Shown here one piece after another: positions 1 through 36,275 of a stretch of DNA of 64,000 nt; positions within the stretch are counted from its first letter, which is position 1, and the number at the start of each line of letters is the position of its first letter. The DNA is taken from the IMG/VR virus record IMGVR_UViG_3300045988_137804, positions 1-64,000 of that record, one strand, 5' to 3'. The notes beneath the pieces were generated by a model that worked only from the letters and a program-made list of their open reading frames with translations, did no database searches and was not told the DNA's origin. This DNA comes from a virus. The position numbers and the translations under genes are program-made.

Positions 1-68
1 TCAAATTCACAGAAGTTTACCAGTTTCCAATCTTTTTTGAATGAATTTATGCTTTTATCAGTATTCAT
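1..68 (-). CDS. C5 DNA methyltransferase paralog, first 22 codons only (gene runs off the left edge of the window)
   Basis: Minus-strand ATG at 68-66, with AAGGGA 5 nt upstream. It reads MNTDKSINSFKKDWKLVNFCEF. From codon 6 onward it is nucleotide-identical to the 5' end of the plus-strand methyltransferase. Confidence 0.4.
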   Translation of the reverse strand, partial: MNTDKSINSFKKDWKLVNFCEF

Positions 69-238
69 AAAAATCCCTTATTTATAGGGGATTGCGCAAT
101 CTCTTTATTCTAGAATTTACCTGTTTTCACCTTTCTTAATTTTAAAAACTCCTCGCTTTCAAGGCATTTGCAACTACCATGTGAAAGCATAAATTCATTC
201 AAAAAAGATTGGAAACTGGTAAACTTCTGTGAATTTGA
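1..238. repeat. Perfect 55-bp inverted repeat (1-55 vs 184-238) around a 128-bp spacer
   Basis: Bases 1-55 are the exact reverse complement of 184-238. The left arm touches the window edge, so the repeat may be longer. Confidence 0.95.
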
Positions 239-1679
239 TAAGTATGCAACAAAATCATACTGTGCAATTCATGGTGTAGATGAATCATTGAATCTTGGTG
301 ATATTACAAAAGTTGATGAGACAAATCTTGAACAATTTAATATGATTTGTGGAGGTAGCCCGTGTCAGGATTTTTCTGTAGCAGGTAAACAAAAGGGTTC
401 TGTTTGGACTTGTAAAGAATGTGGACATGAATATAATCCATTAACAGTTCATTGGGCTGAACGTGATAAGTGTCCAAATTGCAACAGTGAAAATATTGAA
501 AAGACAAGATCATCATTACTTGTTGAATATTTAAGAGTTATCAGAGCAAATAAACCAAATTTTGGAATTTATGAGAATGTAAAGAACATTGTCGGTAGAC
601 AGTTTAAAGACACAACATTTAAATTGTTTACTGATGAGTTGGAAGAATACGGATATAACGTGTATTGGAAGGTGCTTAATGCAAAGAATTATGGTATTCC
701 ACAAAATAGGGAGCGTGTGTATCTGATTTTTATTAAGAAAGATTTGGATAATGGTAAGTTTAAATTTCCAGAACCATTTGATAATGGTGTTAGATTGAAA
801 GATTTATTGGAAGACGTTGTTGATCAAAAATATTATCTTAGCAAAGAAGTTCAAGATAGATTCAAGCTAACTGATGATACTTTTACAAAAAATATTATTG
901 GCACAACAAAACCAGAGTTTAGAACAATCGGTCAAAGAGATTTGGTATATCAGAAAGATTCCGTAATGGGTGCATTAGTAGCAATAGATTATAAGCAACC
1001 GAAACAGATTTTGGATAATGATATTAAAACAGTTGCAATTCCACAAGCCACCAAAAAAGGTTACATAGAATGTGAAATTGGTGGAGTTGCAGATTTATCA
1101 TATCCAGATTCTAAAACTAGACGTGGAAGAGTACAAGATGGTGGTAATATTTGTCCAACATTAACTGCTACAGAGACAGGTGTATGTAGAATCGAATCTG
1201 TTGAAGACAAGCCTAAAGAAAGATTTTTTAGACAAGCATTAGATACATTTGATGATTCCGATGCAGAATATGGAGATACAATTGATGCATTTAATAAAAG
1301 AGTAAATAAATCGGGCTGTTCACCTACATTAACGACAAGACCAGAAGGGTTTAAAACAGCTATTTTGCCAGTAACAAATAATTTACGAGTAAGAAAATTA
1401 ACTCCGAAAGAATGCTTTAGACTTATGGGATTTTCGGATGAAAATTTCAATGCAGCACATAATGCAGGTATTTCAAATTCGCAGTTGTATAAGCAAGCTG
1501 GAAATTCAATCGTGGTAGATGTTTTATATTACATATTTGTTGAGCTGTATAAAGCCATGCCATATCTTTTTGATGATTTAAAGTTAAGCAGTTTCTTCTC
1601 AGGAATCGGAGCATTTGAAGTGGCATTGGACAGATTATACAAAGGAATTAATTTTGGAAATTTTACAAATTCACATTAA
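168..1679 (+). CDS. DNA (cytosine-5)-methyltransferase with motif I at the C-terminus (circularly permuted) and a zinc-ribbon insert
   Basis: Motif order: FCEFDKYA (II), GGSPCQDFSVAG (IV, catalytic PCQ), ENVKNI (VI), QNRERVYLIF (VIII), LTPKECFRLMGF (IX), AGNSIVVDVL (X), then FFSGIGAFEVAL (motif I, FxGxG) at 1593-1616. TTG start with a weak RBS, so the start is uncertain. Confidence 0.85.
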   Translation: MQLPCESINSFKKDWKLVNFCEFDKYATKSYCAIHGVDESLNLGDITKVDETNLEQFNMICGGSPCQDFSVAGKQKGSVWTCKECGHEYNPLTVHWAERDKCPNCNSENIEKTRSSLLVEYLRVIRANKPNFGIYENVKNIVGRQFKDTTFKLFTDELEEYGYNVYWKVLNAKNYGIPQNRERVYLIFIKKDLDNGKFKFPEPFDNGVRLKDLLEDVVDQKYYLSKEVQDRFKLTDDTFTKNIIGTTKPEFRTIGQRDLVYQKDSVMGALVAIDYKQPKQILDNDIKTVAIPQATKKGYIECEIGGVADLSYPDSKTRRGRVQDGGNICPTLTATETGVCRIESVEDKPKERFFRQALDTFDDSDAEYGDTIDAFNKRVNKSGCSPTLTTRPEGFKTAILPVTNNLRVRKLTPKECFRLMGFSDENFNAAHNAGISNSQLYKQAGNSIVVDVLYYIFVELYKAMPYLFDDLKLSSFFSGIGAFEVALDRLYKGINFGNFTNSH

Positions 1680-1699
1680 GCGAAAGGAACTGTCTATAT

Positions 1700-1993
1700 A
1701 TGGATAATTATTGTCTTAAATATTCAATTTATATTTTTGACGAAGAAGGAAAACTTTATGATTTAGTACATTCTAAATTTGGAATAAAAATAATTATGCA
1801 TACGAAAGAGAAAGGTCATAAAGAACCACATGTGCATGTCAAGTACGAAAATAAAGAAGCAGTGCTAAGTTTGATAGATGGAAGATTTATGAAAGGAAAC
1901 ATACATCCAAACAAAAGGAAATATGCGGAAGAATGGGTAATGAATAACAAAGAGGAACTTCTAAAAAGGTATAAAGAAGTGATTGTTTTATGA
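1700..1993 (+). CDS. DUF4160-like protein
   Basis: HKEPHVHVKYENKEAVLSL...G.IHPNKRKYAEEWVMNNKEELLKRY matches my recollection of the DUF4160 pattern (PPHFHA.Y....G.lp......eW......L...W). Confidence 0.55.
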   Translation: MDNYCLKYSIYIFDEEGKLYDLVHSKFGIKIIMHTKEKGHKEPHVHVKYENKEAVLSLIDGRFMKGNIHPNKRKYAEEWVMNNKEELLKRYKEVIVL

Positions 1994-2247
1994 ATCACAT
2001 AGAGAACACAATAGCTGTAAAATATGAAAACTTTAAGGAGAGAATAAACATTATGACGATTAAATTTATTAAAGATGTTGTCTTCAAAGACCAAAAAGAA
2101 GACAGTGTAAAGATTAAAAAAGGAAAGATTCTCACAGCAAAGGTTGTAAGAAACGAAGATGGTAAGGAAGAATATGAGATTACTCATAGGAAAAATACAT
2201 TCATGATTCCATCTTCTATGAAAGATGTAGTATTTGAGATTTTGTAA
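1990..2247 (+). CDS. hypothetical protein (possible small partner of the DUF4160 gene)
   Basis: ATGA overlap with the upstream gene, same strand. No recognisable motif. Confidence 0.45.
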   Translation: MNHIENTIAVKYENFKERINIMTIKFIKDVVFKDQKEDSVKIKKGKILTAKVVRNEDGKEEYEITHRKNTFMIPSSMKDVVFEIL

Positions 2248-2309
2248 ATTTGTTCAGATTCTTTTGGAGAATAAGTAAGTATACAAATAATGATTGCGAG
2301 GTATATAAA

Positions 2310-2819
2310 ATGCTTAACAAAGAACAAAAGAATCTGGTGGAAGAAAATTATAATCTTACATATAAATATGCAAAAGATCACAAGTTGGATATGGAAGAAT
2401 TCAGTGGATTGCTTTCTATTGGTTTGTGTAAAGCTGCGTTAAATTACGATTCAGATAAAACAAAGTTCTCTACGTTTGCATACAGATGTATGGGAAATGA
2501 AGTAAGTAATTATCTGAGAAAAGTTAATGCAGGTAAATACTTGAGACATGATGAAGTATATTCCATGGAAGCATTGAATGAAAACGAGAATAGAGCTATA
2601 GAAGAGACATTTCTTATGACTTCATCGGAGAATATTGAGATAGACTATATGTTCAAGGCTAAGTTTCAGAAAGAATATGACAAGCTGAAAGACCAGGTTA
2701 AGAACATTGTTGCTCTCAAATATCATGGATACACAAACAATGAAGTTGCAGAAATTATGAATATAAAAGCATCTACTATAAGTATGGCTTTGAAAAAGTT
2801 CAAATATGCGCTGGTATAA
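2310..2819 (+). CDS. phage sigma-70 family (ECF-like) sigma factor
   Basis: Region-2-like segment LLSIGLCKAALNYDSDKTKFSTFAYRCMGNEVSNYLRK and region-4 HTH YTNNEVAEIMNIKASTISMALKKFKY. Start moved to the ATG at 2310, which has GAGGT upstream. Confidence 0.7.
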   Translation: MLNKEQKNLVEENYNLTYKYAKDHKLDMEEFSGLLSIGLCKAALNYDSDKTKFSTFAYRCMGNEVSNYLRKVNAGKYLRHDEVYSMEALNENENRAIEETFLMTSSENIEIDYMFKAKFQKEYDKLKDQVKNIVALKYHGYTNNEVAEIMNIKASTISMALKKFKYALV

Positions 2820-2870
2820 ATGCTATATTATGAGATATATAGATAATATTGTGTGTTGCAATAAATCGTA

Positions 2871-2886
2871 ATACTACATGTAGTAT
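2871..2886. promoter_or_regulatory. perfect 16-bp palindrome ATACTACATGTAGTAT in an intergenic region
   Basis: Self-complementary by eye. TTGCAA lies 10 nt upstream and TATAAA just downstream, so it looks like an operator overlapping a promoter. Confidence 0.4.
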
Positions 2887-2900
2887 ATAAATATATCATC

Positions 2901-2918
2901 ACACACTATATATAGTAT
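2901..2918. promoter_or_regulatory. ACACACTATATATAGT operator-like motif, copy 1
   Basis: 16 nt identical (17 of 18) to the motif at 11947-11964. Followed by TAAAAT at 2919-2924. Confidence 0.4.
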
Positions 2919-2977
2919 TAAAATATAGATGAAATGCGAATTTCATTGGTGGAGAATATATAAGCGGAGGTGATAAC

Positions 2978-3502
2978 GTGGGAACAAATTATTACATGAT
3001 GATGAAGGACAAGGAACTTGCAATGAAGTATTTCGATAATGAGTACGAGCTTACAGATACTCCGTATTTTGGCTATGAAGTACATATCATGAAACTGAGT
3101 TATGGTTGGAAACCTTTATTTGAGTGGCATGGGAATGCGTATAAATCAGTAGAAGATATGCTAAAGTTCTTGGAATTTCATAGAATGGATATTGATATTT
3201 TTGACGAATATAATCGAGAATATACCATTGAAGAATTAAAAGAAGAGTTCGTAAGTCATAAAAATGTAAAACCAAGATATATGAAACATATTCCAGAAGG
3301 CATTCCGAATCATACATTTGGTGGTAGAGATTATTTAGCTGAGTCCACTGAGGATGATTATGACATTAAAATGCCATATGACCATGTAGAGTATCATAAA
3401 TTAGATCCTTACAATGAAAAAAGATGGATAGATGAAAGTAGAGAGCCATTATATTTTCACGATAAGGATGGTTATGATTTTACGAAAGGATGGTTCGAAT
3501 AA
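2978..3502 (+). CDS. hypothetical protein
   Basis: GTG start 6 nt after GGAGGTG. 174-aa ORF with no recognised motif. Confidence 0.6.
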   Translation: MGTNYYMMMKDKELAMKYFDNEYELTDTPYFGYEVHIMKLSYGWKPLFEWHGNAYKSVEDMLKFLEFHRMDIDIFDEYNREYTIEELKEEFVSHKNVKPRYMKHIPEGIPNHTFGGRDYLAESTEDDYDIKMPYDHVEYHKLDPYNEKRWIDESREPLYFHDKDGYDFTKGWFE

Positions 3503-3612: not shown

Positions 3613-4477
3613 CAAAAAGAAAAATTTATTGTGGAATATATATGATACGCAATAAAATAAACGATAAAAAATATATAGGTCAAAGTATAGATATATGGTA
3701 TAGATATAGAAATCATTTGAGTGAATCATATAATGTAAACAAAAAAGCTTACAATATGGCAATTCATAAGGCGATAAGAAAATATGGTAAAAGTAATTTT
3801 GAATTAATTGTTTTAGAAGAATGTCCAAAAGAAAAATTAAATGAACGAGAAATTTATTGGATAGAATATTACGATACATACAATGATGGTTACAATCAAA
3901 CAATTGGTGGGGATACATTAAAAAATACAATTGATAGAGCAAATATATATATCGTCTGTGGGATGAAGGAAAATCTATTAAAGACATTCGTGAAATAACT
4001 AAGCATGGAAAACATCAAATTATTCGTATTTTAGAAGGTTATGATAAATATTCACCTGAAGAAAGCAAGAGAAGAGGATTTTCGTCTGCTTCAAAGACTA
4101 GGGGCAAAACTGTGTATAGATATCAAATGAATGGTGAATATATAGATGAATTTTGGTCAATTGCTGAAGCCGGAAGAAAAACAGGAACAAGAAATACAGA
4201 TATAAGTTTATGCTTAAATGGTTCTCAACAATCTGCAAATAATTATAGATGGAGTTTTGAGAAAAAAGATAATATCGGAGAATACAAAGCGGAGATGGCA
4301 AACAAAAAGAAAGCAGTTATAAAATATGATGAGGACAATAATTTTATTGAAGAATTTGCATCAATTACAGATGCGGCGAAATCAGTAGGGCTAAAAGGTT
4401 TATCTGGAATAATAAAATCATGTGAAAAAGATGTTTTGTGCAAAGGGTATAAGTGGAAATATAAATATCAAATCTAA
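3606..4477 (+). mobile_element. GIY-YIG homing endonuclease with NUMOD/IENR1-type DNA-binding repeats; frameshifted, no canonical start (probably decaying)
   Basis: The GIY motif (YCGIYMIRNKINDKKYIGQS) starts upstream of the first ATG (3642). The catalytic frame ends at 3998. The HTH and NUMOD-like part (LWDEGKSIKDIREI..., VYRYQMNGEYIDEFWSIAEAGRKTG..., VIKYDEDNNFIEEFASITDAAKSVG...) continues in another frame that opens after the stop at 3935-3937. The shift falls in the AAATATATATAT run near 3941-3952. Confidence 0.7.
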
Positions 4478-9507: not shown

Positions 9508-9594
9508 GTAAAGAGTAAAGTTCAAATGTCAAGTAGTAAAGCTCAAAATTCAAAGATTATTTTTTATGTAAAGTTTAAGCAGTAAATAGTAAAG
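9508..9594. repeat. five GTAAAG-centred degenerate direct repeats (iteron-like)
   Basis: GTAAAG at 9508, 9515, 9536, 9568 and 9589, with similar flanks (AGTAAAGTTCAAATGTCAA / AGTAAAGCTCAAAATTCAA). Lies inside a 430-nt ORF-free stretch. Confidence 0.5.
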
Positions 9595-9744
9595 ATATAA
9601 AGTTTTATAAAATCTTCGACAAACAGTTTTCAGTATGATTGTACTTGGCTGTAAGTTGTCTGCGAAGCTAGTAAATGGTGAATTAATTAATAAATGTCAA
9701 CCTACATAATAATATGCATAGTTGTCGTGAGGGTTGGCAAATAT

Positions 9745-9833
9745 GGATCATTACATCAACTGGTAAGATGAGCTGCCTCATAAGCAGAAAGCCCTAATAA
9801 GGTATAAACTGGGTTCGACTCCCAGATGATCCA
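9745..9833 (+). tRNA. tRNA-like gene, anticodon CAU, unusually long (20-nt) variable region
   Basis: Acceptor GGATCAT/ATGATCC, D arm CATC-AACTGGTAA-GATG, anticodon loop CTCATAA, T arm CTGGG-TTCGACT-CCCAG. 89 nt, no encoded CCA. Confidence 0.55.
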
Positions 9834-9968
9834 CTGTATCTGAATATTCACAGAATGTGTTATTCGTTTCCTTTCTTTCTATGAACATTCTAGTTCAGAT
9901 ACAATGTTTTTCATAACTTCCTTTTGTTTGGTTGGCAACTTACCATATAGACAAAAAAGTTGCAATAA

Positions 9969-10039
9969 TGGGCTGTGGTGTAATGGTAGCACATAATACT
10001 TTGACTATTATAGATCCAGTTCAAATCTGGACAGCCTAG
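9969..10039 (+). tRNA. tRNA-Gln (UUG)
   Basis: Canonical cloverleaf: TGGGCTG/CAGCCTA acceptor with U1-A72 as in bacterial tRNA-Gln, anticodon arm TAATA-CTTTGAC-TATTA, T arm TCCAG-TTCAAAT-CTGGA. Confidence 0.85.
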
Positions 10040-10124
10040 CTTGTGAGATTTTGGAACGTCTCACAAATATTACTCCTTTCATGGGTTATTTATAGTGCAA
10101 AAGATGTGCAGAAATGCACATCGA

Positions 10125-24940: not shown

Positions 24941-25747
24941 ATGATTAAAATTTCATGTAAAGAATACGCAGCCAATCTAAAAGAAGAACTAAAAGAGTTA
25001 TGCGAAAAATCACCAAGACAGCGTTGCCTTACAGTGGTTCAGATTGGGAATGATGCAGCAAGTAACTCTTATGTAAATGGCAAAAGAAAAGATTGTGAGT
25101 ATGTTGGGATCAAGTTCAATCATGTACATATTACAGATTATGAAAATCTTGACGAATCAGATCTATGCCAAATTATTAAAGAACTTGATAAATCAGAGGA
25201 AGTAGATGGAATCATCATCCAGCTTCCTATTCCAGACAAATACAATGTAAAAATATTGCAGCAGTTCATTAGTCCAGAAAAAGATGTTGATGGTTTCAGA
25301 AAGGATTCGCTTTACAATCCATGCACTCCGCAAGGAATTATTGATTGGCTCGAAGCTAATGACATTGATTTAAGAGGTAAGTTAATAACTGTATTAGGAA
25401 GAAGTGAGATAGTAGGTAAGCCACTTGTAAACATGTTGATTGATAATGGTGCAACAGTTATTAATTGCAACAGCAAAACACCAGAGAATAAAATAAAGTA
25501 TTTTACTAGAATGTCAGATATTGTTGTTTCTGCAATTGGTAAACCACTTAAGTTAGATTGGATTTATTTTGATGATTATACAATTATTGTAGATGTTGGA
25601 ATCAATAGAGATAAGGACGGTAAGTTATGTGGAGATGTAAATACGAAAGACTTTGATAAATTCTTTTCATCTAATTATGTAACACCTGTTCCGGGTGGTG
25701 TTGGTCTGTTAACAAGGGTTACATTGCTGAAAAATGTGATGAGATAA
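24941..25747 (+). CDS. folD: bifunctional methylenetetrahydrofolate dehydrogenase/cyclohydrolase
   Basis: YVNGKRKDCEYVGI, IIIQLPIP, GRSEIVGKPL, TPVPGGVGLLT. Confidence 0.85.
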   Translation: MIKISCKEYAANLKEELKELCEKSPRQRCLTVVQIGNDAASNSYVNGKRKDCEYVGIKFNHVHITDYENLDESDLCQIIKELDKSEEVDGIIIQLPIPDKYNVKILQQFISPEKDVDGFRKDSLYNPCTPQGIIDWLEANDIDLRGKLITVLGRSEIVGKPLVNMLIDNGATVINCNSKTPENKIKYFTRMSDIVVSAIGKPLKLDWIYFDDYTIIVDVGINRDKDGKLCGDVNTKDFDKFFSSNYVTPVPGGVGLLTRVTLLKNVMR

Positions 25748-25782
25748 GCAGATGAAAGAATCGTTTCATTAGGAGGAAACAT

Positions 25783-26112
25783 ATGAAAATGTTGTATACA
25801 GTAATGATTATTGCTTGTGCTATTGCTTACGTTGTTAGTGTTATTTCTCTTCTAAACCCAGATGGATGGAAAAGGAAGAAGTTCACAGCAGATGAGGCTA
25901 GGAAGATATCTGATGATTATTCTGAAGATATTGCCTTTATCGAGAAAGAAATTAAACAAACCGCTAAACAAAACAAAACTTCTGTCGAACTGACTATTAA
26001 CAGTGAAGAAGTAGTGAAGCATTTCGAGAACGCTAAATTTGTTGTAACACATGTCGATAAATGTATTTATAACATTGATTGGAGCAATGATGCAGAAAGT
26101 AAAAGACATTAG
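25783..26112 (+). CDS. membrane-anchored hypothetical protein
   Basis: N-terminal TM helix. AGGAGG RBS. Confidence 0.5.
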   Translation: MKMLYTVMIIACAIAYVVSVISLLNPDGWKRKKFTADEARKISDDYSEDIAFIEKEIKQTAKQNKTSVELTINSEEVVKHFENAKFVVTHVDKCIYNIDWSNDAESKRH

Positions 26113-26239
26113 AGAATATTCAATAGAGGAAATAATCTATCCTAAAACATTGGAACTCCGAGTCAGTATGGAAGATTTCAAACGCTGGCTTGGAGTCGAT
26201 GAAGAAAGAAAATTTGGTTACACATTGGAGGAGAATAAA

Positions 26240-26932
26240 ATGGGAACAGTAATAATTACAAAAGACACAACAAAATATCCTATCACAATGATTGGAAGAT
26301 ATGCAGGTGTATGTTGGGGAGCAAATACATCAGACAATGAAAAAAATTACAAACGTGGTTTGGATTGCATTGAAAGTGAACACGGAAGGACATGGGAGTT
26401 TCCAGATGTATATGCAATTATTGATGGATATTCAGCCAAGGTTTTGCGTGAATGGTATACACATGTAGGAGGTTTGCCAACCAGATTACAAGCATCTACG
26501 AGATATATCAATTATTCTAAGGGTGAAGGATTTAAATATGTAACTCCACCTACAATTGCAAATAATAATGATGCGTTGGCAGAGTGGTCATCAATGATGA
26601 GTAATATTAATGATATGATTAGCAAATTTATCAATGTATATAATATTCCGGTCGAAGATGCGACAATGGCACTACCTATAGCATATCAAAGTAAAATGGT
26701 AGACAAACGTAATTTTAGAAACGTTGTAGATATGTCAAATCAGAGAACTTGTACAAGAGCATATTGGGAATATAGAAATCAGTTAATGAAAGATTACCTT
26801 CATGCATTAAGAGAATATTCAGAAGAGTGGAAGACATTAATAGATATGAAATGCAAACCAAAATGTGAGAAAACAGGATTCTGTACAGAAAAGAAGACAT
26901 GTGAAAGAAAACCAAAAAGAGACGAAAAATAG
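26240..26932 (+). CDS. thyX: ThyX-like flavin-dependent thymidylate synthase (divergent; an in-frame N-terminal extension back to 26087 is possible)
   Basis: ESEHGRTWEF..., LQASTRY (SxRY of the ThyX motif) and TRAYWEYR. The usual RHR is replaced by THV. Confidence 0.65.
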   Translation: MGTVIITKDTTKYPITMIGRYAGVCWGANTSDNEKNYKRGLDCIESEHGRTWEFPDVYAIIDGYSAKVLREWYTHVGGLPTRLQASTRYINYSKGEGFKYVTPPTIANNNDALAEWSSMMSNINDMISKFINVYNIPVEDATMALPIAYQSKMVDKRNFRNVVDMSNQRTCTRAYWEYRNQLMKDYLHALREYSEEWKTLIDMKCKPKCEKTGFCTEKKTCERKPKRDEK

Positions 26933-26945
26933 GAGAGTATTTATT

Positions 26946-27125
26946 ATGAATAAAAATATCGAAAAAGAAATTTTAAACAATCAAAAAGTAATTATGAGAG
27001 TATTACGCACAATTACGTCAGAAAAATACAATAATAACGATAATTCTAAATTGGATTATGACCTGCTCGAATACAGAATTGGGAAAACAGGTGAACTTTT
27101 AAGAACCTTGGAGGATGAAAATTAA
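26946..27125 (+). CDS. hypothetical protein
   Basis: ATG after TAGGAGAG. 59 aa. Confidence 0.45.
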   Translation: MNKNIEKEILNNQKVIMRVLRTITSEKYNNNDNSKLDYDLLEYRIGKTGELLRTLEDEN

Positions 27126-27331
27126 TGAGAGATCCGAATAGAACATATCCATTTTGCAGAGAATTAGCAACAATTTGGAGTGAAAAATATCCTGACTTAA
27201 GATTTGGTCAGCTTATGTATAACTTCATTGTTTGGTGCAGCAATACAAAGAAGCGTGATATTTTCTTTCCAGAAGAAAAAGAATTTATGGAACTGTTTAA
27301 AGAATTTTGTGGAGTTGAAGAAGGAGAATAA
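27125..27331 (+). CDS. hypothetical protein
   Basis: TAATG overlap, GGAGG RBS. Confidence 0.5.
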   Translation: MRDPNRTYPFCRELATIWSEKYPDLRFGQLMYNFIVWCSNTKKRDIFFPEEKEFMELFKEFCGVEEGE

Positions 27332-27334
27332 AGA

Positions 27335-27832
27335 ATGAACACATTAATGGGTTATTTATTACAACCAGACACAGTGATTTTCTTTGATGTGGACGGAGTA
27401 TTAGCACCGTATGAATTTGGTGTTAATAAACATTGTATTGATGACGAAGAATGGGATAGAAAAATGACAGCAGGAGAAGACATGTATTCTACGGTATCTC
27501 CAATTAGATTGTTCCAAAATTTTATTGAAAGAAAAGGAACAGATAATGTATATGTTTGCTCTAAAGCATCGACAGAAGAGTATGCGTCCAAAATGAAATT
27601 CTGCCAAGATGGATATGGTATTCCATCTGACCACATTTTTCTAGTTGCTTCTAAAAAGGAAAAGCTTGATATCCTGAGAAGTTTTTCAGTTGCTCTTGGT
27701 ATTCCAGAAGAAAAGATTGCAATGGTAGAGGATACAGTAGAAACGCTTGATATGATTTTTAATAATACAAATTGTGCAACAGTACATGTATCTTCGTTCC
27801 TTGATTATAATGATGAGGTAATTTATGAATAA
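27335..27832 (+). CDS. HAD-superfamily hydrolase (nucleotidase-like)
   Basis: HAD motif I FFDVDGVL. Confidence 0.5.
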   Translation: MNTLMGYLLQPDTVIFFDVDGVLAPYEFGVNKHCIDDEEWDRKMTAGEDMYSTVSPIRLFQNFIERKGTDNVYVCSKASTEEYASKMKFCQDGYGIPSDHIFLVASKKEKLDILRSFSVALGIPEEKIAMVEDTVETLDMIFNNTNCATVHVSSFLDYNDEVIYE

Positions 27833-29780
27833 AGTAGATAGAATTAAAGAATTAATTTCAACACTCAACAAAGCATCAGACGCTTATTATAACAGTGGTA
27901 ATCCTATTATGACAGATTATGAATGGGATAACTTATATGATGAGCTTGCGAAATTAGAGAGAGAAACAGGTGTTGTTTATCTTAATAGTCCTACGCAACA
28001 GGTTGGATATGAGGTTAAAACAAAACTTGAAAAAGTAACTCATTCACATCCAATGCTTTCTCTTGGGAAAACAAAGTCTGTTAATGATTTAGTGAAATTT
28101 TCCAATGGGAGAGATTGTATTATTTCTCTTAAAATGGATGGTCTTACGGTTTTAAATACATATGAAGATGGCAAATTGACCCAAAGTGAGACTAGGGGGA
28201 ATGGTGAGGTTGGTGAATTGATTACTCACAACGCCAAAGTATTTGATAATTTACCTGTATCTATTGATATGGATAAGAAGTTTGAGATTGAGGGAGAAGC
28301 AATTATCACAAAAGAAGACTTCCACAATATTAATTTAAAACTTAAAAATGGTGAGAAATATAAGAACCCTCGTAACTTGGCAAGCGGATCAGTTAGACAG
28401 TTAGATAGTAAAATTACAAAAGACCGTCATGTAAAATTTATTGCTTGGAAGATTCCTCATGGATTTACAAGATTTACAGATGGTTTCAAATTTGCAGAAG
28501 AATTAGGCTTTGATGTTGTGCCTTATTCAAAATATAACAGTAAAACAGATGATATTAATGTAATTGTTGAATATCTAAAAGACCTTGCAGACGTAAAAGG
28601 TTATCCGATTGATGGTCTTGTTATTACATATGATAATGTAGAATATGGCAAATCACTTGGTAACACGGGACACCATCCTAGACATTCGTTGGCGTTCAAA
28701 TTTTATGATGAAGAAGAAGTTACCATATTAAAAGATATTGAATGGGGAATGGGTAAAACAGGACAGCTCACGCCAGTAGCAATTTTCGATGACGTAGAAA
28801 TTGATGGTACAACAGTTAATAGAGCATCACTCCATAATGTTTCCATTCTTAAAGAACTGCAACTTGGTATTGGGGATAAGATTACAGTATATAAAGCCAA
28901 TCAGATAATTCCTCAGCTACGAGAAAATCTTACAAAAAGCAATACAATCACAATCCCATCAACCTGTCCTATTTGTGGAAAACCTACAAAGATTGTAAAA
29001 GATAACGATTCAGAAGTTCTTATGTGTACGAATGATAACTGTGCAGGTAAACTTCTTGGTAAACTTTGTCATGCAGTTAGCAAAAATGCATTGAATATTG
29101 ATGGTTTATCTGAAGCAACAATTCAGAAATTCATTGACCTTGGCTGGTTAAAATCAATCAGAGATATCTATTACCTGCATCTTCATAAGATGGACATGTA
29201 TAAACTCGAAGGATTTGGTAAGAAGTCAGTAGATAAACTTCTTAAATCAATTGAAGAAAGTAGAAATACAGACTTAGTTAGATACATTTATGCACAATCA
29301 ATTCCTTTAATTGGACACACTGCAAGTAAAGCAATTTCTAGAGTGTGTAATGGAGATTTTGACATATTTTTAATGCGTATGTCTGGAATGGAGGATTATA
29401 ATTTTTCATCAATAGATGGCTTTGGGACAGAAATGGTCAAATCACTTAGTAGTTGGTGGGATAAAAATGCTTGGCAATTTACAGATACTGGTCACAACGA
29501 ATTTACATTTAAGAAGAAAGAAACAGTTAATGTATCAGGAACAGATTTAACAGGAAAAGTATTCGTAATCACCGGAAGCCTTAGTCAATTCAGAAATCGT
29601 GATGAGTTAAAAGAAGTGATTGAGAGTCTTGGTGGTAAAGTTTCTGGATCAGTAAGTACCAAAACAGCAGCTTTAATTAACAACGATATTGAATCTTCAA
29701 GTAGTAAGAATAAGAAAGCAAAAAGTCTTGGTATTCCGATTCTTACAGAGAATATGTTTATGGAGAAATATCTAAGATAA
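27825..29780 (+). CDS. ligA: NAD-dependent DNA ligase
   Basis: Adenylation lysine LKMDG, OB and zinc-finger region (CPICG...C), HhH repeats, C-terminal BRCT (FVITGSL...). Confidence 0.9.
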   Translation: MNKVDRIKELISTLNKASDAYYNSGNPIMTDYEWDNLYDELAKLERETGVVYLNSPTQQVGYEVKTKLEKVTHSHPMLSLGKTKSVNDLVKFSNGRDCIISLKMDGLTVLNTYEDGKLTQSETRGNGEVGELITHNAKVFDNLPVSIDMDKKFEIEGEAIITKEDFHNINLKLKNGEKYKNPRNLASGSVRQLDSKITKDRHVKFIAWKIPHGFTRFTDGFKFAEELGFDVVPYSKYNSKTDDINVIVEYLKDLADVKGYPIDGLVITYDNVEYGKSLGNTGHHPRHSLAFKFYDEEEVTILKDIEWGMGKTGQLTPVAIFDDVEIDGTTVNRASLHNVSILKELQLGIGDKITVYKANQIIPQLRENLTKSNTITIPSTCPICGKPTKIVKDNDSEVLMCTNDNCAGKLLGKLCHAVSKNALNIDGLSEATIQKFIDLGWLKSIRDIYYLHLHKMDMYKLEGFGKKSVDKLLKSIEESRNTDLVRYIYAQSIPLIGHTASKAISRVCNGDFDIFLMRMSGMEDYNFSSIDGFGTEMVKSLSSWWDKNAWQFTDTGHNEFTFKKKETVNVSGTDLTGKVFVITGSLSQFRNRDELKEVIESLGGKVSGSVSTKTAALINNDIESSSSKNKKAKSLGIPILTENMFMEKYLR

Positions 29781-29793
29781 GGAGAACAAGAAT

Positions 29794-29997
29794 ATGATAG
29801 AAACTATGATCGTATTTTTTCTATTTCTATTTATAAATTCATTTGTAATTTCTATATTCTTTTCAGGAATTAGTGGTCTATCATTATGTAGGCGTATATT
29901 ATATTCCTTATTACTTGCTTTAGTACTTTCCGGTTTATTAACATTTTCAACTTTAGCTGTTTACTTTATAGATACAGGAGTGAATTTATTAATATGA
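29794..29997 (+). CDS. small membrane protein
   Basis: Two hydrophobic helices. AAGGAG RBS. Confidence 0.5.
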   Translation: MIETMIVFFLFLFINSFVISIFFSGISGLSLCRRILYSLLLALVLSGLLTFSTLAVYFIDTGVNLLI

Positions 29998-30545
29998 TTT
30001 ATGTATTACTTGGCAAAACAGCCAGTGGTAAGGACACCATAGCTTCAAAACTGGCTAAAAAAGGACTTAAACGGGTTGTAACTTACACAACCCGTCCACC
30101 AAGAAAAGGTGAAAAAGATGGCGAGAATTATCATTTTATCACTAACGATGAATTTGAAGGATTGATTCAAAGCGGATTTTTCGCAGAGTGGAGGTCTTAC
30201 GACACTGTAGATGGTGTTTGGTATTATGGATCGTCAATAGATAGCTATGATACAGATGAAGATAGAATTATAATTTTGAACCCTGATGGGTTTCATCAAA
30301 TCAAAAAAATCTTAGAACCTGAAAAGGTCAAATCAATTTATGTATATTCAAACATAAAAACAATCAGAAATAGATTAAAAAAACGTGGAGACAAGAAAGA
30401 AGAAGCTGAAAGACGTATTGAACACGACTTAATTGACTTCAAAGGTCTTGAAAATGAAGTAGATAAGATTATGTATAACAACGAAGATGATAATCTCGAT
30501 GACGTAGTTCAAAAAATTCTTTCTTATATAACAGAGAATAAGTAA
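29994..30545 (+). CDS. gmk: guanylate kinase-like nucleotide kinase
   Basis: P-loop GKTASGKDT and the Gmk signature TTRPPRKGEKDGENYHF. Confidence 0.8.
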   Translation: MIYVLLGKTASGKDTIASKLAKKGLKRVVTYTTRPPRKGEKDGENYHFITNDEFEGLIQSGFFAEWRSYDTVDGVWYYGSSIDSYDTDEDRIIILNPDGFHQIKKILEPEKVKSIYVYSNIKTIRNRLKKRGDKKEEAERRIEHDLIDFKGLENEVDKIMYNNEDDNLDDVVQKILSYITENK

Positions 30546-30561
30546 GTGGAGGATTAGTTAA

Positions 30562-30756
30562 TTGGTATCAACGACAGCACAATTAGCTAGAGACTTGCAT
30601 AATTTAGGTGACAATTTTGTAATTGCAGTGGATGAAGATGGTGTGGAATACATCATCGATTCCATTGGCAAAGCGTGTAGACATTATGATAACCCATACG
30701 AATATTGTTTAGCACTTAAGTTAAAAAGAGCAAGTTCTGGCTGTATTAAAAGATAG
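30562..30756 (+). CDS. hypothetical protein
   Basis: TTG start after GTGGAGG. Confidence 0.4.
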   Translation: MVSTTAQLARDLHNLGDNFVIAVDEDGVEYIIDSIGKACRHYDNPYEYCLALKLKRASSGCIKR

Positions 30757-30768
30757 GAGAATATAGAA

Positions 30769-31002
30769 ATGTATATTAATTTTGCAACAGTTAATGACGT
30801 AGCATTATTTACAACAACGTGTGATAAATATGATGAAGATATAGATATCTACTTTGGTCACATGTGTTTTGATGCAAAATCTCTTGGAGCTAATATGAAT
30901 CTAATTGGCAAAGATGCAAAAGTTGTTATTCATACAGATGATGAGTCTGTGGAGAATAAATTTAAAGAGGATGTAAATTTGTGGATTGTAAAGAAAGGGT
31001 GA
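30769..31002 (+). CDS. HPr-like fold protein, paralog 1
   Basis: CDKYDEDIDIYFGHMCFDAKSLGANMNLIGKDAKVVIHTDD aligns by eye with the HPr core (..vnaKSimgvmsLg...g..i.i.a.G.de). The His15 region is not conserved. Confidence 0.4.
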   Translation: MYINFATVNDVALFTTTCDKYDEDIDIYFGHMCFDAKSLGANMNLIGKDAKVVIHTDDESVENKFKEDVNLWIVKKG

Positions 31003-31008
31003 TTAAAG

Positions 31009-31248
31009 ATGTGGATTCTATTGAACGACACAACTGAATTAGTTGCATTTAGGAATGGTGCAAGGTTCTTTGATGGAACAATTGAAGTGCAGCAGGGCAG
31101 ATATATTATTGATGCCAAAAGTACACTTGGTCTGTTTAGCTTGGATCTTTCAAAGCCTGTAGATGTGACCATCACATGTGATAGTGAGAGAGTAAAAAAT
31201 AATTTCTATGATTATGTCAAGAAGTGGAGAGCAGAAGATGGCATTTAG
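31009..31248 (+). CDS. HPr-like fold protein, paralog 2
   Basis: ARFFDGTIEVQQGRYIIDAKSTLGLFSLDLSKPVDVTITCD. Same pattern as the neighbouring gene. Confidence 0.4.
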   Translation: MWILLNDTTELVAFRNGARFFDGTIEVQQGRYIIDAKSTLGLFSLDLSKPVDVTITCDSERVKNNFYDYVKKWRAEDGI

Positions 31249-31603
31249 GTATTCTGCATACAATACAACAATTTTCAATTGTCCATGTAAATGCTGTTTG
31301 ACGTGGGAAGAATGTAGCGTTACACAACCATCAAAATGTCAAAGAATATTGGATAATTATGTGGACTACTACGAAAGTAAAAAGAAAATAACTAATAAAA
31401 CAAGATATTCCGAAACAAAGAAATCTAAAGCTATCCGTGAAAAACTTGAGAAAGATTCAAATGACATTGAGAAGTTAATTCTGCAATTGTCAAAAGATGG
31501 ATGTAAAAACGACAATAACGAACTTGTTTTTCTCACATCCAGGTATTCATACATAAAAGAATTGCTTAAAAAATATTGGAAAGATGGTGAGAAAAATGAA
31601 TAA
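31238..31603 (+). CDS. hypothetical cysteine-rich/basic protein
   Basis: ATG at 31238 after GGAGAG. Confidence 0.45.
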   Translation: MAFRYSAYNTTIFNCPCKCCLTWEECSVTQPSKCQRILDNYVDYYESKKKITNKTRYSETKKSKAIREKLEKDSNDIEKLILQLSKDGCKNDNNELVFLTSRYSYIKELLKKYWKDGEKNE

Positions 31604-32192
31604 ACCTAAACTATTTTTAGATTTTGACAACACAATCGTAGATACAATCGCAGCAGTTGTGTCTCTATACAATGAAGATTACGCATCTAATGAAGGCTTT
31701 GTTCAGATTAATCCTGAAGATGTAACAAGTTGGGAGTTTACCGAATGTAATCTTGCTACATATGAAGAGATTGACAGATATTTTGGTGATGAAAGATTCT
31801 TCCAAAGAGTCAAATTGTATCCAAGTGCAGGTCAAGTCTTACGATCGTTATCCCATAGATATGATATCACTATTGTCTCACATGGGTATGCTAACAATTT
31901 GAGACTGAAAGAAAAATGGGTAAAAGATAATTTGTTTAAAGAAATCTTCGATAGTAGTTGCAATGCTGAATTTGTTGGTGTTGATTGGGAAACACATAAC
32001 GACAAATCTCATGTAGACATGTCTAATTCTATTTTCGTAGATGATTCTATCAGAAATCTCGAAACAAGTAGTGCAAAATATAAAATCTTATATGGAGAAT
32101 ATATGGATTGGAATAATACAAATATTGAGTTCATTCGATGCAAGAATTGGCTCGATTTGAACAATCAGATTTGTCTGATCGAAAGATTTTAA
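31596..32192 (+). CDS. HAD-type 5'(3')-deoxyribonucleotidase-like protein
   Basis: HAD motif I LFLDFDNTIVDT. Size and layout resemble NT5C-family enzymes. Confidence 0.5.
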   Translation: MNKPKLFLDFDNTIVDTIAAVVSLYNEDYASNEGFVQINPEDVTSWEFTECNLATYEEIDRYFGDERFFQRVKLYPSAGQVLRSLSHRYDITIVSHGYANNLRLKEKWVKDNLFKEIFDSSCNAEFVGVDWETHNDKSHVDMSNSIFVDDSIRNLETSSAKYKILYGEYMDWNNTNIEFIRCKNWLDLNNQICLIERF

Positions 32193-32206
32193 GGAGGTAT
32201 CTGAAA

Positions 32207-32383
32207 ATGGTAGTAACTAATTTTTTATGTTTTTTAGTTGGTGCAGTTATTGGAGTCATAATGACGTGTTTTTGTAATGTTAATTACGATGATTCTCGTG
32301 AAAGAGAATGGAATGAATGGAAAAGTGATATGGAAGAATTCGAACTTGATGAAGATTTGAAAGAAACAAAGGAGGATAAGTAA
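32207..32383 (+). CDS. small membrane protein
   Basis: AAGGAGG RBS. One TM helix then an acidic tail. Confidence 0.5.
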   Translation: MVVTNFLCFLVGAVIGVIMTCFCNVNYDDSREREWNEWKSDMEEFELDEDLKETKEDK

Positions 32384-32385
32384 TA

Positions 32386-35300: not shown

Positions 35301-35730
35301 TCACGTTCCTGTGTTTGAAAGAATTACAGCATTTGACAAATTTAAAATTGAATCAAAATTCCAAAACCTTAGTCCAGGAGGCGCAATTTCGTATTGTGAA
35401 ATCCCATCAATTAACGTAAATATTCCAGCATTATTGGAAGTAATTAAATTTATTTATGACAATATTATGTACGCAGAAATCAATACAAAAGATTGTTATT
35501 GCGAAGTGTGTGGATACGATGGAGACATTCCACTTATTGACGATGATAACGGTAAACTTGTATGGGAATGCCCTAATTGTGGCAACACAGATAATACAAA
35601 AATGGACATCGCATTTAGAGTTTGTGGTTATGTTGGTACTGCAAAAAATGGTGGAAACCAAGGAAGATATGGAGATATCCACGATAGAGTTTACCACATC
35701 GATGACTTTGAATACGAGGAAAATGAATAA
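32386..35730 (+). CDS. nrdD: anaerobic ribonucleoside-triphosphate reductase (class III), interrupted by an intein
   Basis: ATP-cone start VIKRDCSEVDFDKNKI, conserved MGC|RSFL site split by the intein, C-terminal zinc site CxxC...CPNC and glycyl-radical motif RVCGYVG. Confidence 0.9.
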   Translation: MVRVIKRDCSEVDFDKNKISTAILKAMKNGSGIVKPKIAESIADEIEKECKDREEIDISEIEAMVFDKLITKKQRLTARAYEGYRSTREFQRENENTVDEEILGIVEANNEEWKDENANKNPALNPTIRDYIAGSVSKDATKRFLLSPEIIQSHLEGIIHFHDSDYFIQHMHNCGLVNLEDMLQNGTVISETMIEKPHSFSTACTVTTQIIAQVASSQYGGQSISLAHLAPFVDVSREKIRKEVISEQELVGMEYPEDVLNEIVERRLKKEITKGVQTIQYQLITLMTTNGQAPFITIFMYLNEAKNEREKKDLAMLIEEMLLQRKLGVKNEDGVYIAPAFPKLIYVLEDDNCNESTEYWYLTELAAECTSKRLVPDYISEKVMKELKGDVYTCMGCVDGKELVTYTYNNNLYVESFERMWNRLSDRFEIKHQYNDNNPNLYMDLSDVEIYDTDKGFVNTERIIRNISTSWLDVNFSNGRRLLCTEDHPLTLRDGRTIHASELKLKDRILINSHQYNEENIVFNEDKAWLLGFMLCDGCYQGSLFSSIAAENEDEIADKFSETMKKYFDLDIEKKLQQRGKKGTYYDLIAHSQNEKISVYCNYFAKKFEGLNKIDRHVPNEVFSWNYSSKLAFLAGMIDADGYINSSQNKGFSIVQIGSTNKELALQQMALAQSLGMPAKLYHNHYSKRNPELIRYRVEFYPTDELINYIVCKKKYDNYIDSNVSSYNHESEVTEINKINKKMFSYDVTTTSEHFEISGIYSHNCRSFLTVDRFSDKVGNISNAKNFNGKHKYYGRFNQGVVTINLPDIAFSSDGDMDKFWGIFEERTELCHKALKARHNRLLKTSSDIAPILWQNGAYARLKKHEPIDKLLFDGYSTISLGYAGLYECVKYMTGKSHTDGDVGEKFGLEVMQALNDKCNQWKEAENIDYSLYGSPIESTTYKFAKCLKNRFGDDIFIKLDGFDRNYITNSYHVPVFERITAFDKFKIESKFQNLSPGGAISYCEIPSINVNIPALLEVIKFIYDNIMYAEINTKDCYCEVCGYDGDIPLIDDDNGKLVWECPNCGNTDNTKMDIAFRVCGYVGTAKNGGNQGRYGDIHDRVYHIDDFEYEENE
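33574..34677 (+). mobile_element. 368-aa intein with a LAGLIDADG homing endonuclease inside nrdD
   Basis: Starts at Cys (CVDGKELVT) right after YTCMG. Block B TEDHP. Two LAGLIDADG motifs (LLGFMLCDGC, LAGMIDADGYI). Ends ...IYSHN followed by the +1 Cys of CRSFL. Confidence 0.85.
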
Positions 35731-36275
35731 TGAAATATAACTCAATTAGATACATGGACATCAGTAATGGAGAGGGCGTTGGAGTCGCCCTTTTCGTACA
35801 AGGCTGCAATTTCCATTGTCCTTCTTGTTTTAACCAAGATACTTGGGACTTCAATGGTGGCAAAGAATGGACAGAAAAAACTAAAGAAACATTTCTTAAA
35901 TTAGCAGATAAACCATACATAAAAAGAGTTTCATTTCTTGGTGGAGAATGTTTAGCAAATGAAAATCTTGAAGGAGTTTATGATGTTATCAAAGATGTAA
36001 ACGAATTATTTCCTGATAAAAAGATATGGATGTATACAGGCTATACTTGGGAATCTATTTTTAATCCAATTGTGACTGACAATCTTGATCTGGAAAGAGA
36101 TAGACTTATTGAACTCAGAAAAATGATTGTTAAAATGACAGATGTTCTTATTGATGGACAATATATTCATGAACAAAGAGATATGAATTTAAAATTCCGT
36201 GGCAGCAAAAATCAGTGTGTTATTGATACAAAAAAATCTCTTGATCAGGGCAAAATAGTTCTATATCTTGATTAA
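35730..36275 (+). CDS. nrdG: anaerobic RNR activating protein (radical SAM)
   Basis: CNFHCPSCFN cluster motif. ATGA-type overlap with nrdD. Confidence 0.85.
   Translation: MKYNSIRYMDISNGEGVGVALFVQGCNFHCPSCFNQDTWDFNGGKEWTEKTKETFLKLADKPYIKRVSFLGGECLANENLEGVYDVIKDVNELFPDKKIWMYTGYTWESIFNPIVTDNLDLERDRLIELRKMIVKMTDVLIDGQYIHEQRDMNLKFRGSKNQCVIDTKKSLDQGKIVLYLD

What the first reader, a model, noticed from the sequence alone, without database searches (positions are those of the whole stretch)
168..1679. Circularly permuted C5 DNA methyltransferase: motif I (FxGxG) follows motif X at the C-terminus
- The ORF runs II (FCEFDKYA), IV (GSPCQDF), VI (ENV), VIII (QNRERV), a target-recognition domain, IX, X (AGNSIVV), and only then LKLSSFFSGIGAFEVALDRL (1593-1616 for FFSGIGAF). 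This last element is a textbook motif I that normally opens the protein.
- The divergent partial paralog at 68-1 has a clean ATG and RBS and also begins just before motif II (MNTDKSINSFKKDWKLVNFCEF). The missing N-terminal motif I therefore looks genuine and not a truncated annotation.
- The C5-methyltransferase permutations I recall are M.BssHII-type (IX-X moved to the front) and plant DRM-type. Relocating motif I alone is not one I recognise.
- It is structurally plausible, because motif X packs next to the motif I strand.
Basis: partly seen in the sequence, partly recalled or inferred. Interest (0 to 1): 0.65.

Follow-up and report, generated by a model that had tools for sequence, protein, structure and literature searches.

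The report
Permuted phage cytosine methyltransferase with invertible start
This phage gene encodes a DNA cytosine methyltransferase whose first building block (the SAM-binding motif I) has moved to the very end of the protein, an arrangement shared by a large and apparently undescribed natural family, and the gene's start sits on a small DNA segment that flips between two orientations.

Summary
ORF 168-1679 (503 aa) is a C5 DNA methyltransferase (PF00145, 201 bits). Its motifs run II, IV, VI, VIII, TRD, IX, X and only then motif I (FFSGIGAF, nt 1593-1616).

This is not a fusion or an assembly error:
- All 118 listed homologs with an intact C-terminus share the order.
- 136 of 150 representatives of 50%-identity clusters have motif I exactly 32 residues after motif X.
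- Five of the seven invariant columns in a 78-sequence alignment lie in the tail.
- The tail aligns with the N-terminus of a canonical-order relative.
- AlphaFold2 models the tail as a strand plus helix at pLDDT 95-98.

A 2018 REBASE survey and a 2025 classification list only BssHII-type permuted prokaryotic C5 enzymes. An engineered equivalent of this topology (cp35M.MpeI) is active.

The "paralog at 68-1" is wrong. Window 1-55 is the exact reverse complement of 184-238. The 128-bp segment between them (56-183) is invertible. Near-identical phage genomes carry it in either orientation. One orientation gives ATG plus a Shine-Dalgarno sequence (MNTDKSIN...). The window's orientation gives a weak TTG start (MQLPCESIN...).

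Verdict: a new variant of a known kind, moderately to highly interesting. Enzyme activity and the effect of the switch are inferred, not shown.

The parts
1..55 (.). Exact reverse-complement copy of 184-238. It is the junction of the opposite (B) orientation of the invertible segment with the methyltransferase body. Most likely a k=55 fold-back at a contig start, caused by both orientations being present in the sample.
   Evidence: 55 nt, 100% complementary. L001 has different sequence (the end of the upstream gene) left of about position 46.
47..55 (.). Left inverted-repeat core TTATGCTTT. The full arm is about 15 nt and imperfect (AAGAAATTATGCTTT in L001).
56..183 (.). Invertible segment S (128 bp), here in orientation A. 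It carries an SD (AAGGGA, 79-74) and an ATG (68-66) that point away from the gene on the minus strand.
   Evidence: S lies in the opposite orientation in L002-L005, L007, L010 and L012. L010 and L011 are 100% / 99.97% identical in the flanks, and only the central ~159 bp is inverted.
184..192 (.). Right inverted-repeat core AAAGCATAA. It lies inside the coding sequence (codons for K/E-S-I-N), and the arm extends to about 199.
   Evidence: The same arm precedes other methyltransferase genes in L006 and L008/9.
168..1679 (+). Circularly permuted C5 DNA methyltransferase ORF (503 aa). It has a TTG start with a weak AAGG 3 nt upstream in this orientation.
225..248 (+). Motif II (FCEFDKYA). The beta2 strand is residues 15-21 in the model.
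354..374 (+). Motif IV (GSPCQDF), with the catalytic Cys66.
   Evidence: aligned with HhaI GFPCQAF; invariant.
399..503 (+). Zn-ribbon insert (CxxC...CxxC; C82, C85, C102, C105) between motifs IV and V.
   Evidence: Zn_ribbon_8 and HypA-like matches; cysteines invariant; pLDDT 96-98.
573..581 (+). Motif VI (ENV).
702..719 (+). Motif VIII (QNRERV).
813..1382 (+). Variable target-recognition region. It looks like about three modules (...DYKQPKQ; ...CPTLTATE; ...SPTLTTRPEG) and is mosaic among homologs.
   Evidence: Low pLDDT.
1392..1433 (+). Motif IX (RKLTPKECFRLMGF).
1497..1517 (+). Motif X (AGNSIVV), followed by its helix to residue 463.
1557..1676 (+).

Best explanation
The ORF encodes a genuine, naturally circularly permuted C5 DNA methyltransferase with motif order II-III-IV-(Zn ribbon)-V-VI-VII-VIII-TRD-IX-X-I.

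How the permuted protein works (inferred from sequence, model and analogy):
- The last ~40 residues are the strand beta1, the FxGxG SAM-binding loop and helix alphaA, which open the protein in ordinary enzymes.
- They are joined directly to the motif-X helix through a short linker (MPYLFDD).
- They fold back into the Rossmann-like sheet next to beta2, so the SAM pocket is assembled from the two ends of the chain.
- The new termini lie in the loop between alphaA and beta2.
- The arrangement most likely arose from a canonical phage enzyme such as P0254 by tandem duplication, in-frame fusion and trimming at both ends.
- The enzyme is probably an anti-restriction, multi-TRD modification enzyme of a ~204-kb Firmicutes phage.

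How the switch works:
- The gene's first codons and its ribosome-binding site lie on a 128-bp invertible segment bounded by ~15-nt imperfect inverted repeats (9-nt perfect core).
- Orientation B supplies AAGGGA-N5-ATG and the leader MNTDKSIN.
- Orientation A, seen in the window, leaves only a TTG with a poor SD and the leader MQLPCESIN.
- Inversion therefore most likely switches translation of the methyltransferase high or low.

Shown: the motif order, its conservation, the confident modelling of the tail as strand plus helix, and the inversion itself.
Inferred: catalytic activity, multispecificity, the ON/OFF effect and the recombinase.

The confidence given (0.8) is for the genuine, selected permutation with a functional tail. 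Separately: about 0.8 that the segment is an actively switching inverton, and about 0.5 that it acts as an ON/OFF translational switch.
For: Permutation:
- PF00145 at 201 bits.
- HhaI aligns in separate pieces to II-IV, V-VIII and IX-X, and its motif I (residues 12-30) aligns to LKLSSFFSGIGAFEVALDR at the C-terminus.
- Plant DRM chains, which also have X followed by I, align contiguously across query 407-492.
- All 118 listed homologs with an intact C-terminus end in ...MPYLFDDLKLSSFFSGIGAFE.AL.RL... and start ~14 residues before motif II. They include proteins from Anaerobutyricum hallii, Coprococcus and Coprobacillus genomes.
- Among 150 representatives of 50%-identity clusters, 136 have motif I exactly 32 residues after motif X. 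Of 30 that also contain motifs IV and VI, 24 have no motif I before IV.
- In a 78-sequence alignment (39-96% identity), five of the seven invariant columns are F477, S478, G479, G481 and E484.
- The tail aligns with residues 1-24 of the canonical-order relative P0254 (58% identity, E 3e-7).
- AlphaFold2 with the diverse alignment gives pTM 0.71, core pLDDT above 90 and tail pLDDT 95-98, with strand 471-476 and helix 482-495. The best PDB match is M.HhaI.
- The engineered cp35M.MpeI, whose new N-terminus at residue 35 appears (from the paper's Class A-J ordering) to fall between motifs I and II, is active in vivo (PMC5944983).

Inverton:
- S lies in opposite orientations in L001 and L002 behind the same upstream gene.
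- Among 44 close homologs there are 24 A-type and 20 B-type N-termini. Four A/B pairs have 100% identical bodies.
- L010 and L011 are 100% identical over 886 bp upstream and 99.97% over 2984 bp downstream, and only the central ~159 bp aligns on the opposite strand.
- The window itself carries the B-orientation junction as its first 55 nt.
Against: - No enzymatic data exist for any member.
- Model coordinates could not be inspected, so contact of the tail strand with beta2/beta4 is inferred from DSSP strand assignment and high pLDDT, not measured.
- Moving the tail to the front raised the Pfam score only from 201 to 205 bits, and deleting the tail gave 204 bits, so the profile alone does not prove motif I identity.
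- The first AlphaFold2 run, with a shallow alignment, failed (pLDDT 40).
- For the switch: no invertase gene was found in the window or within 10 kb upstream in L001.
- No sigma-70 promoter was found in S.
- Orientation A is as common as B in assemblies, so A may not be a full OFF state.
- Coexistence of both orientations within one sample rests on a single fold-back at the window edge.
Confidence: 0.8

Rival explanations
1. Fusion artefact: a normal methyltransferase that lost its stop codon, or was misassembled, and runs into the 5' fragment of a second, truncated methyltransferase gene. On this view the tail is not part of a functional protein.
For: Tandem methyltransferase genes do occur at this locus: a 308-aa C5 enzyme lies directly upstream. 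Motif I directly after motif X is what a head-to-tail fusion would look like.
Against: - The identical 503-aa protein occurs on 5 independent contigs.
- The junction is conserved, with fixed 32-residue spacing, in 136 of 150 diverse cluster representatives.
- No complete member has an N-terminal motif I.
- The gene downstream (DUF4160, 1700-1993) is unrelated.
Confidence: 0.02
2. The permuted order is real, but the tail is a vestige. The protein is then inactive as a methyltransferase, for example a DNA-binding pseudo-enzyme, or it borrows a SAM-binding element from a partner such as the upstream 308-aa enzyme.
For: The Pfam score is essentially unchanged with or without the tail. No activity data exist. 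Split C5 enzymes are known from the literature (e.g. M.AquI; own knowledge).
Against: - Motif I residues are the most conserved in the family.
- All catalytic motifs are intact (PCQ, ENV, QxRxR, GNS).
- The tail is modelled at pLDDT 95-98 as strand plus helix.
- Bacterial homologs occur without the phage's upstream gene.
- An engineered enzyme of this topology is active (PMC5944983).
Confidence: 0.08
3. The left edge of the window reflects a true long inverted duplication, that is, a second inverted copy of the methyltransferase gene to the left. It is then not an inverton junction or a fold-back.
For: The repeat is cut by the window edge at exactly position 1, so its true length cannot be seen.
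Against: - Every related contig with sequence to the left (L001, L002-5, L007, L010-13) has the same different + strand gene there and no inverted copy.
- 55 nt equals a common assembler k-mer length (own knowledge).
- The 'start' read at 68-1 is exactly the orientation-B leader found fused to the gene in other assemblies.
Confidence: 0.07
4. The two orientations of S are old, fixed alleles spread by recombination between phage lineages. They are not an actively switching site-specific inversion.
For: No recombinase was identified. Each inspected contig shows one orientation. The samples differ.
Against: - Orientation is interleaved among near-identical sequences: four pairs have 100% identical ~480-aa bodies.
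- The breakpoints fall precisely within the 9-nt repeat core.
- Some assemblies break at S: the window starts there, and the L006 locus appears to begin 27 nt before the left repeat although the contig boundary was not confirmed.
Confidence: 0.15

Closest known systems
Canonical bacterial/phage C5 DNA methyltransferases (M.HhaI; Pfam PF00145; Bacillus-phage multispecific enzymes such as M.SPRI)
   Same: All ten motifs are present, including catalytic PCQ, ENV and QxRxR. The TRD lies between VIII and IX. The best structural match of the model is M.HhaI. The variable region looks like a string of TRD modules, as in multispecific phage enzymes.
   Different: Motif I with beta1 and alphaA is at the C-terminus after motif X instead of at the N-terminus. 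A Zn ribbon is inserted after motif IV.
BssHII-type permuted C5 methyltransferases (M.BssHII, M.Alw26I, M2.Eco31I, M.Esp3I, M2.BsaI; 'type H', zeta class, 'Class F')
   Same: Natural circular permutation of the same fold, with motif X directly followed by motif I.
   Different: [quoted passage not shown] Here it lies between motifs I and II (order II...X-I). A 2018 REBASE survey found only the BssHII type among natural prokaryotic enzymes (PMC5944983), and a 2025 classification lists only classes C and F for m5C (bioRxiv 10.1101/2023.12.13.571470).
Plant DRM2 / NtDRM (domains-rearranged methyltransferases; PDB 4onj, 7l4c)
   Same: X is followed by I in one chain. The window's residues 407-492 align contiguously with DRM across that junction.
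   Different: DRM is split between motifs V and VI (order VI-X, I-V), is eukaryotic and acts as a dimer guided by RNA-directed DNA methylation (own knowledge). Here only motif I is moved.
Engineered permutant cp35M.MpeI (Slaska-Kiss et al. 2018)
   Same: By inference the same topology: its new N-terminus at residue 35 appears to lie between motifs I and II, with the native ends fused directly. It was active in vivo ('++').
   Different: It is man-made, poorly soluble and CG-specific. The window protein belongs to a natural, widespread family with its own conserved linker.
Invertons / invertible switches (fimS of E. coli with 9-bp repeats; Bacteroides and Clostridia invertible promoters; intragenic invertons)
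   Same: A short segment is bounded by short inverted repeats, is found in both orientations in otherwise identical genomes, and changes the expression signals of the adjacent gene. One repeat lies inside the coding sequence.
   Different: It lies in a phage genome. It swaps the ribosome-binding site, start codon and first ~6 codons rather than a recognisable promoter. No adjacent recombinase gene was found.

Membership tests
C5 DNA methyltransferase (PF00145) | Significant match to the family profile | tested here: met
   201 bits against a cut-off of 22. HhaI E 2e-35.
C5 DNA methyltransferase (PF00145) | Catalytic motifs IV (PC), VI (ENV) and VIII (QxRxR) and SAM motifs I (FxGxG) and X (GNS) all present | tested here: met
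   Residues 63-69, 136-138, 179-184, 476-483 and 444-450, all invariant or nearly so in homologs.
C5 DNA methyltransferase (PF00145) | Canonical linear order I to X | tested here: not met
   Motif I follows motif X. There is no motif I before motif II.
C5 DNA methyltransferase (PF00145) | Transfers methyl from SAM to cytosine C5 | not testable with these tools
   Needs expression plus bisulfite/EM-seq or methylation-sensitive digestion.
BssHII-type (type H / zeta / Class F) permuted C5 methyltransferases | N-terminus in the variable region, with IX-X preceding I-VIII | tested here: not met
   The window protein starts at motif II, and the TRD, IX and X are in the C-terminal half.
DRM-type rearranged methyltransferases | Order VI-X then I-V | tested here: not met
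   Only the X-to-I junction is shared. Motifs II-V precede VI here.
New 'II...X-I' permuted family (engineered Class A topology) | Protein begins just before motif II and ends with beta1, motif I and alphaA, 32 residues after motif X | tested here: met
   Window protein, 118 listed homologs, and 136 of 150 cluster representatives.
New 'II...X-I' permuted family (engineered Class A topology) | C-terminal strand completes the Rossmann-like sheet | tested here: inconclusive
Multispecific phage C5 methyltransferases | Several TRDs in tandem, each conferring its own specificity | tested here: inconclusive
   Mosaic modules and length variation of 437-619 aa among homologs. Specificities are untested.
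Inverton (site-specific invertible switch) | Segment flanked by inverted repeats | tested here: met
   9-nt perfect core within ~15-nt arms.
Inverton (site-specific invertible switch) | Both orientations occur in otherwise identical genomes | tested here: met
   L010 against L011. Four protein pairs with identical bodies.
Inverton (site-specific invertible switch) | Both orientations coexist within one population | tested here: inconclusive
   Only the 55-nt fold-back at the window start. Reads were not available.
Inverton (site-specific invertible switch) | Dedicated serine or tyrosine recombinase | tested here: inconclusive
   None was found in the 64-kb window or in L001's 10 kb upstream. 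The rest of the ~204-kb genome and the host were not searched.

The most novel reading that the evidence does not exclude
A large gut phage phase-varies its own anti-restriction methylation. A 128-bp invertible cassette carries the ribosome-binding site and start codon, and turns translation of a multispecific, circularly permuted C5 methyltransferase up or down. A single burst would then contain both methylated progeny, which are safe from Type II restriction, and unmethylated progeny, which are safe from methyl-dependent Type IV restriction. The same cassette and right-hand repeat are reused in front of different methyltransferase genes in related phages. This would be a phage-borne epigenetic bet-hedging switch acting on a methyltransferase topology not previously catalogued in nature.
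Probability: 0.4. Interest if true: 0.8.

Novelty: new variant of a known kind. Interest (0 to 1): 0.66.

Why it matters
- C5 methyltransferases are regarded as the most uniform DNA methyltransferase class. Surveys list one natural prokaryotic permutation (BssHII type) plus plant DRM.
- This family shows that nature also uses the 'motif I last' topology, and uses it widely: well over a hundred 50%-identity clusters in gut phages and Firmicutes genomes.
- It gives a natural counterpart to an engineered permutant and a clean test case for the duplication-fusion-truncation model, because canonical and other-order relatives exist in the same family.
- It matters for annotation. Motif-order or N-terminal motif I filters will miscall these enzymes as truncated.
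- The invertible start cassette suggests that phages phase-vary their own DNA modification. That would bear on phage host range and on how gut metagenome assemblies break.

Tried and rejected
- Megablast of window 1-3000 against the GenBank phage collection found no match.
- Pfam scoring of a 'de-permuted' construct gave 205 bits, the tail-less construct 204 and the native protein 201. The 42-aa tail alone gave no hit. This test cannot decide motif I identity.
- The first AlphaFold2 run, with 53 close homologs, failed (mean pLDDT 40). It was replaced by a run on a more diverse 78-sequence alignment.
- Sigma-70 promoter and terminator scans of S in both orientations gave no convincing promoter and only a weak terminator-like hairpin. 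I therefore do not claim an invertible promoter.
- A search for an invertase used a serine-recombinase motif scan and Pfam scans of 20 window ORFs. None was found; the scans turned up a Tn7/Tn5053-like TniA/TniB/TniQ module instead.
- I tested by hand whether short repeats at 228-237 and 1666-1675 (I4) could mark an inversion or excision that would restore a canonical I-to-II junction. The resulting reading frames are meaningless, so this was rejected.
- I checked whether A/B contig pairs came from the same sample. They did not.
Full report
**What is in the sequence**

Window 168-1679 (+) is a 503-aa ORF. It matches the C5 cytosine methyltransferase profile PF00145 at 201 bits against a cut-off of 22.
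- II: FCEFDKYA, nt 225-248
- IV: GSPCQDF, nt 354-374
- VI: ENV, nt 573-581
- VIII: QNRERV, nt 702-719
- a long variable region
- IX: RKLTPKECFRLMGF, nt 1392-1433
- X: AGNSIVV, nt 1497-1517
- then LKLSSFFSGIGAFEVALDRL, with FFSGIGAF at nt 1593-1616, 20 codons before the stop

Against solved structures, M.HhaI aligns in three pieces (II-IV, V-VIII, IX-X). Its own motif I (residues 12-30, LRFIDLFAGLGGFRLALES) aligns with the C-terminal LKLSSFFSGIGAFEVALDR. Plant DRM enzymes are the one solved group in which motif X is followed by motif I. They align contiguously with residues 407-492.

**Is it a fusion or an assembly error? No.**

- The identical protein is encoded on five independent contigs, including the 204,597-bp genome LR756492.1.
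- Of the 120 best homologs (55-100% identity), the 118 with an intact C-terminus all end in ...AGNSIVVDVLYYI.VELYKAMPYLFDDLKLSSFFSGIGAFE.AL.RLY..IN.GNF.... Those with an intact N-terminus start about 14 residues before motif II. The set includes proteins from Anaerobutyricum hallii, Coprococcus and Coprobacillus genomes.
- I searched the last 109 residues against 1.84 billion cluster representatives. Of the 150 best 50%-identity clusters, 136 have motif I exactly 32 residues after motif X, and in 106 it lies within 60 residues of the C-terminus. Thirty representatives also contain motifs IV and VI. Of these, 24 have no motif I before motif IV.
- In a 78-sequence alignment spanning 39-96% identity, only seven columns are invariant. 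Five of them (F477, S478, G479, G481, E484) are in the tail.
- A canonical-order close relative exists (P0254, MKVLSLFSGIGAFEKALNRIG...). Its first 24 residues align with the window's tail at 58% identity, E 3e-7.

The tail is under strong purifying selection.

**Structure**

A first AlphaFold2 run on 53 close homologs was uninformative (mean pLDDT 40). A second run on the diverse alignment gave pTM 0.71 with the catalytic core above pLDDT 90.
- Residues 411-500 score 95-98.
- The tail forms a DSSP strand at 471-476 (LKLSSF, i.e. beta1) and a helix at 482-495 (alphaA), straight after the motif-X helix.
- The TRD region is poorly modelled.
- The model's best PDB matches are M.HhaI structures.

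I could not read the coordinates. Placement of the strand between beta2 and the motif-IV strand is therefore inferred from the strand assignment and the confidence, not measured. A Pfam 'de-permutation' test was indecisive (205 against 204 against 201 bits).

**The 'paralog' is an invertible segment**

Window 1-55 is the exact reverse complement of 184-238. In LR756492.1 the sequence left of about window position 46 is the end of a different + strand 308-aa C5 methyltransferase.

Contigs encoding P0034 have the same upstream gene. In them the 128-bp segment corresponding to window 56-183 is in the opposite orientation, between TTATGCTTT and AAAGCATAA.
- In the window's orientation (A), the ORF has only a TTG with AAGG 3 nt upstream (MQLPCESIN...).

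Evidence that the segment flips:
- Among 44 close homologs, 24 are A and 20 are B, and the two are interleaved. Four A/B pairs have 100% identical ~480-residue bodies.
- L010 and L011 come from different samples. They are 100% identical over 886 bp upstream and 99.97% over 2984 bp downstream, and only the central ~159 bp aligns on the opposite strand.

The window's first 55 nt are best explained as the B junction captured as a fold-back at a contig start. 55 is a common assembler k (my knowledge).

No recombinase was found in the window or in the 10 kb upstream of the gene in L001. No sigma-70 promoter was found in the segment. I therefore infer a translational high/low switch, not a proven one.

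The same leader and right-hand repeat precede other methyltransferase genes in related IMG/VR phages.

**Comparison with what is known**

- Slaska-Kiss et al. 2018 (PMC5944983) scanned 20,677 REBASE entries for motif X preceding motif I. They found 27 natural permuted C5 enzymes, all split in the variable region (BssHII type). Their engineered cp35M.MpeI has its new N-terminus at residue 35. From their Class A-J ordering this appears to lie between motifs I and II, and it was active in vivo.
- A 2025 topology classification of REBASE enzymes lists only classes C (canonical) and F (Eco31I/zeta) for m5C (bioRxiv 10.1101/2023.12.13.571470).
- Four literature searches found no description of a natural II...X-I family or of a phage inverton controlling a methyltransferase.

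Such a search cannot prove absence, and REBASE itself could not be queried.

**Verdict**

The core observation and interpretation are right. This is a genuine circular permutation, distinct from the BssHII and DRM types, and representative of a large natural family. The supporting 'paralog' argument is wrong, but it led to a second feature, an invertible start cassette.

I rate it a new variant of a known kind, with interest about 0.66. Catalytic activity, multispecificity, the ON/OFF consequence of inversion and the recombinase remain to be shown.

Noticed in passing
window 39853-44318 (+): Three consecutive ORFs form a Tn7/Tn5053-like transposition module inside the phage genome: 602 aa with a Mu transposase C-terminal domain, 419 aa TniB/AAA_22, and 466 aa TniQ.
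   Followed up: partly
window 399-503 (residues 78-112 of the methyltransferase): A four-cysteine Zn-ribbon is inserted between motifs IV and V. The cysteines are invariant in close homologs and the insert is modelled at pLDDT 96-98. Some family members lack it (P0127, P0254). Its role is unknown.
   Followed up: partly
relatives P0031, P0043, P0047/48, P0129, P0156, P0190, P0209, P0222 (not in the window): Many family members carry an intein (Hint_2 / Intein_splicing) inserted immediately before the catalytic cysteine of motif IV (GGSP | C...intein...N | CQDF). The catalytic Cys would then be the +1 splicing nucleophile.
   Followed up: no
window 813-1382; homologs P0034-P0120: The target-recognition region is a mosaic of interchangeable modules, most ending in xPT(L/I)T. 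Protein length ranges from 437 to 619 aa, as in multispecific Bacillus-phage methyltransferases.
   Followed up: partly
L006 1-420; L008 ~9560-10100; L009: The same leader cassette and right-hand repeat (...ATGAATACTGATAAAAGCATAAATTCATT...) precede unrelated methyltransferase genes in related phages. In L008/9 the left repeat core is degenerate, so the switch may be locked there.
   Followed up: partly
L001 8945-9871 (immediately left of the window): A second, canonical-order 308-aa C5 methyltransferase with an unusual motif IV (STCCQS) lies directly upstream. The locus is a methyltransferase island.
   Followed up: no
P0205, P0264, P0225, P0229 (cluster representatives): Other motif orders occur within the same family: IX-X-I-II...VIII (BssHII-like), and proteins with duplicated IX-X modules. 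These may be intermediates of the duplication-truncation route to permutation.
   Followed up: no
window 3642-3998, 38148-38855; L001 13475-14310: Free-standing homing-endonuclease-like genes (GIY-YIG, HNH_3 with NUMOD4, NUMOD1) are scattered among the phage's replication and nucleotide-metabolism genes.
   Followed up: no
window 24941-38203 and 44379-45524 (-): The phage encodes an extensive nucleotide-metabolism set (FolD, ThyX, guanylate kinase, NT5C, dUTPase; the 1114-aa and 181-aa ORFs at 32386-36275 look like an anaerobic ribonucleotide reductase pair but were not scanned) and an amidase endolysin with choline-binding repeats, which points to a Firmicutes host.
   Followed up: no
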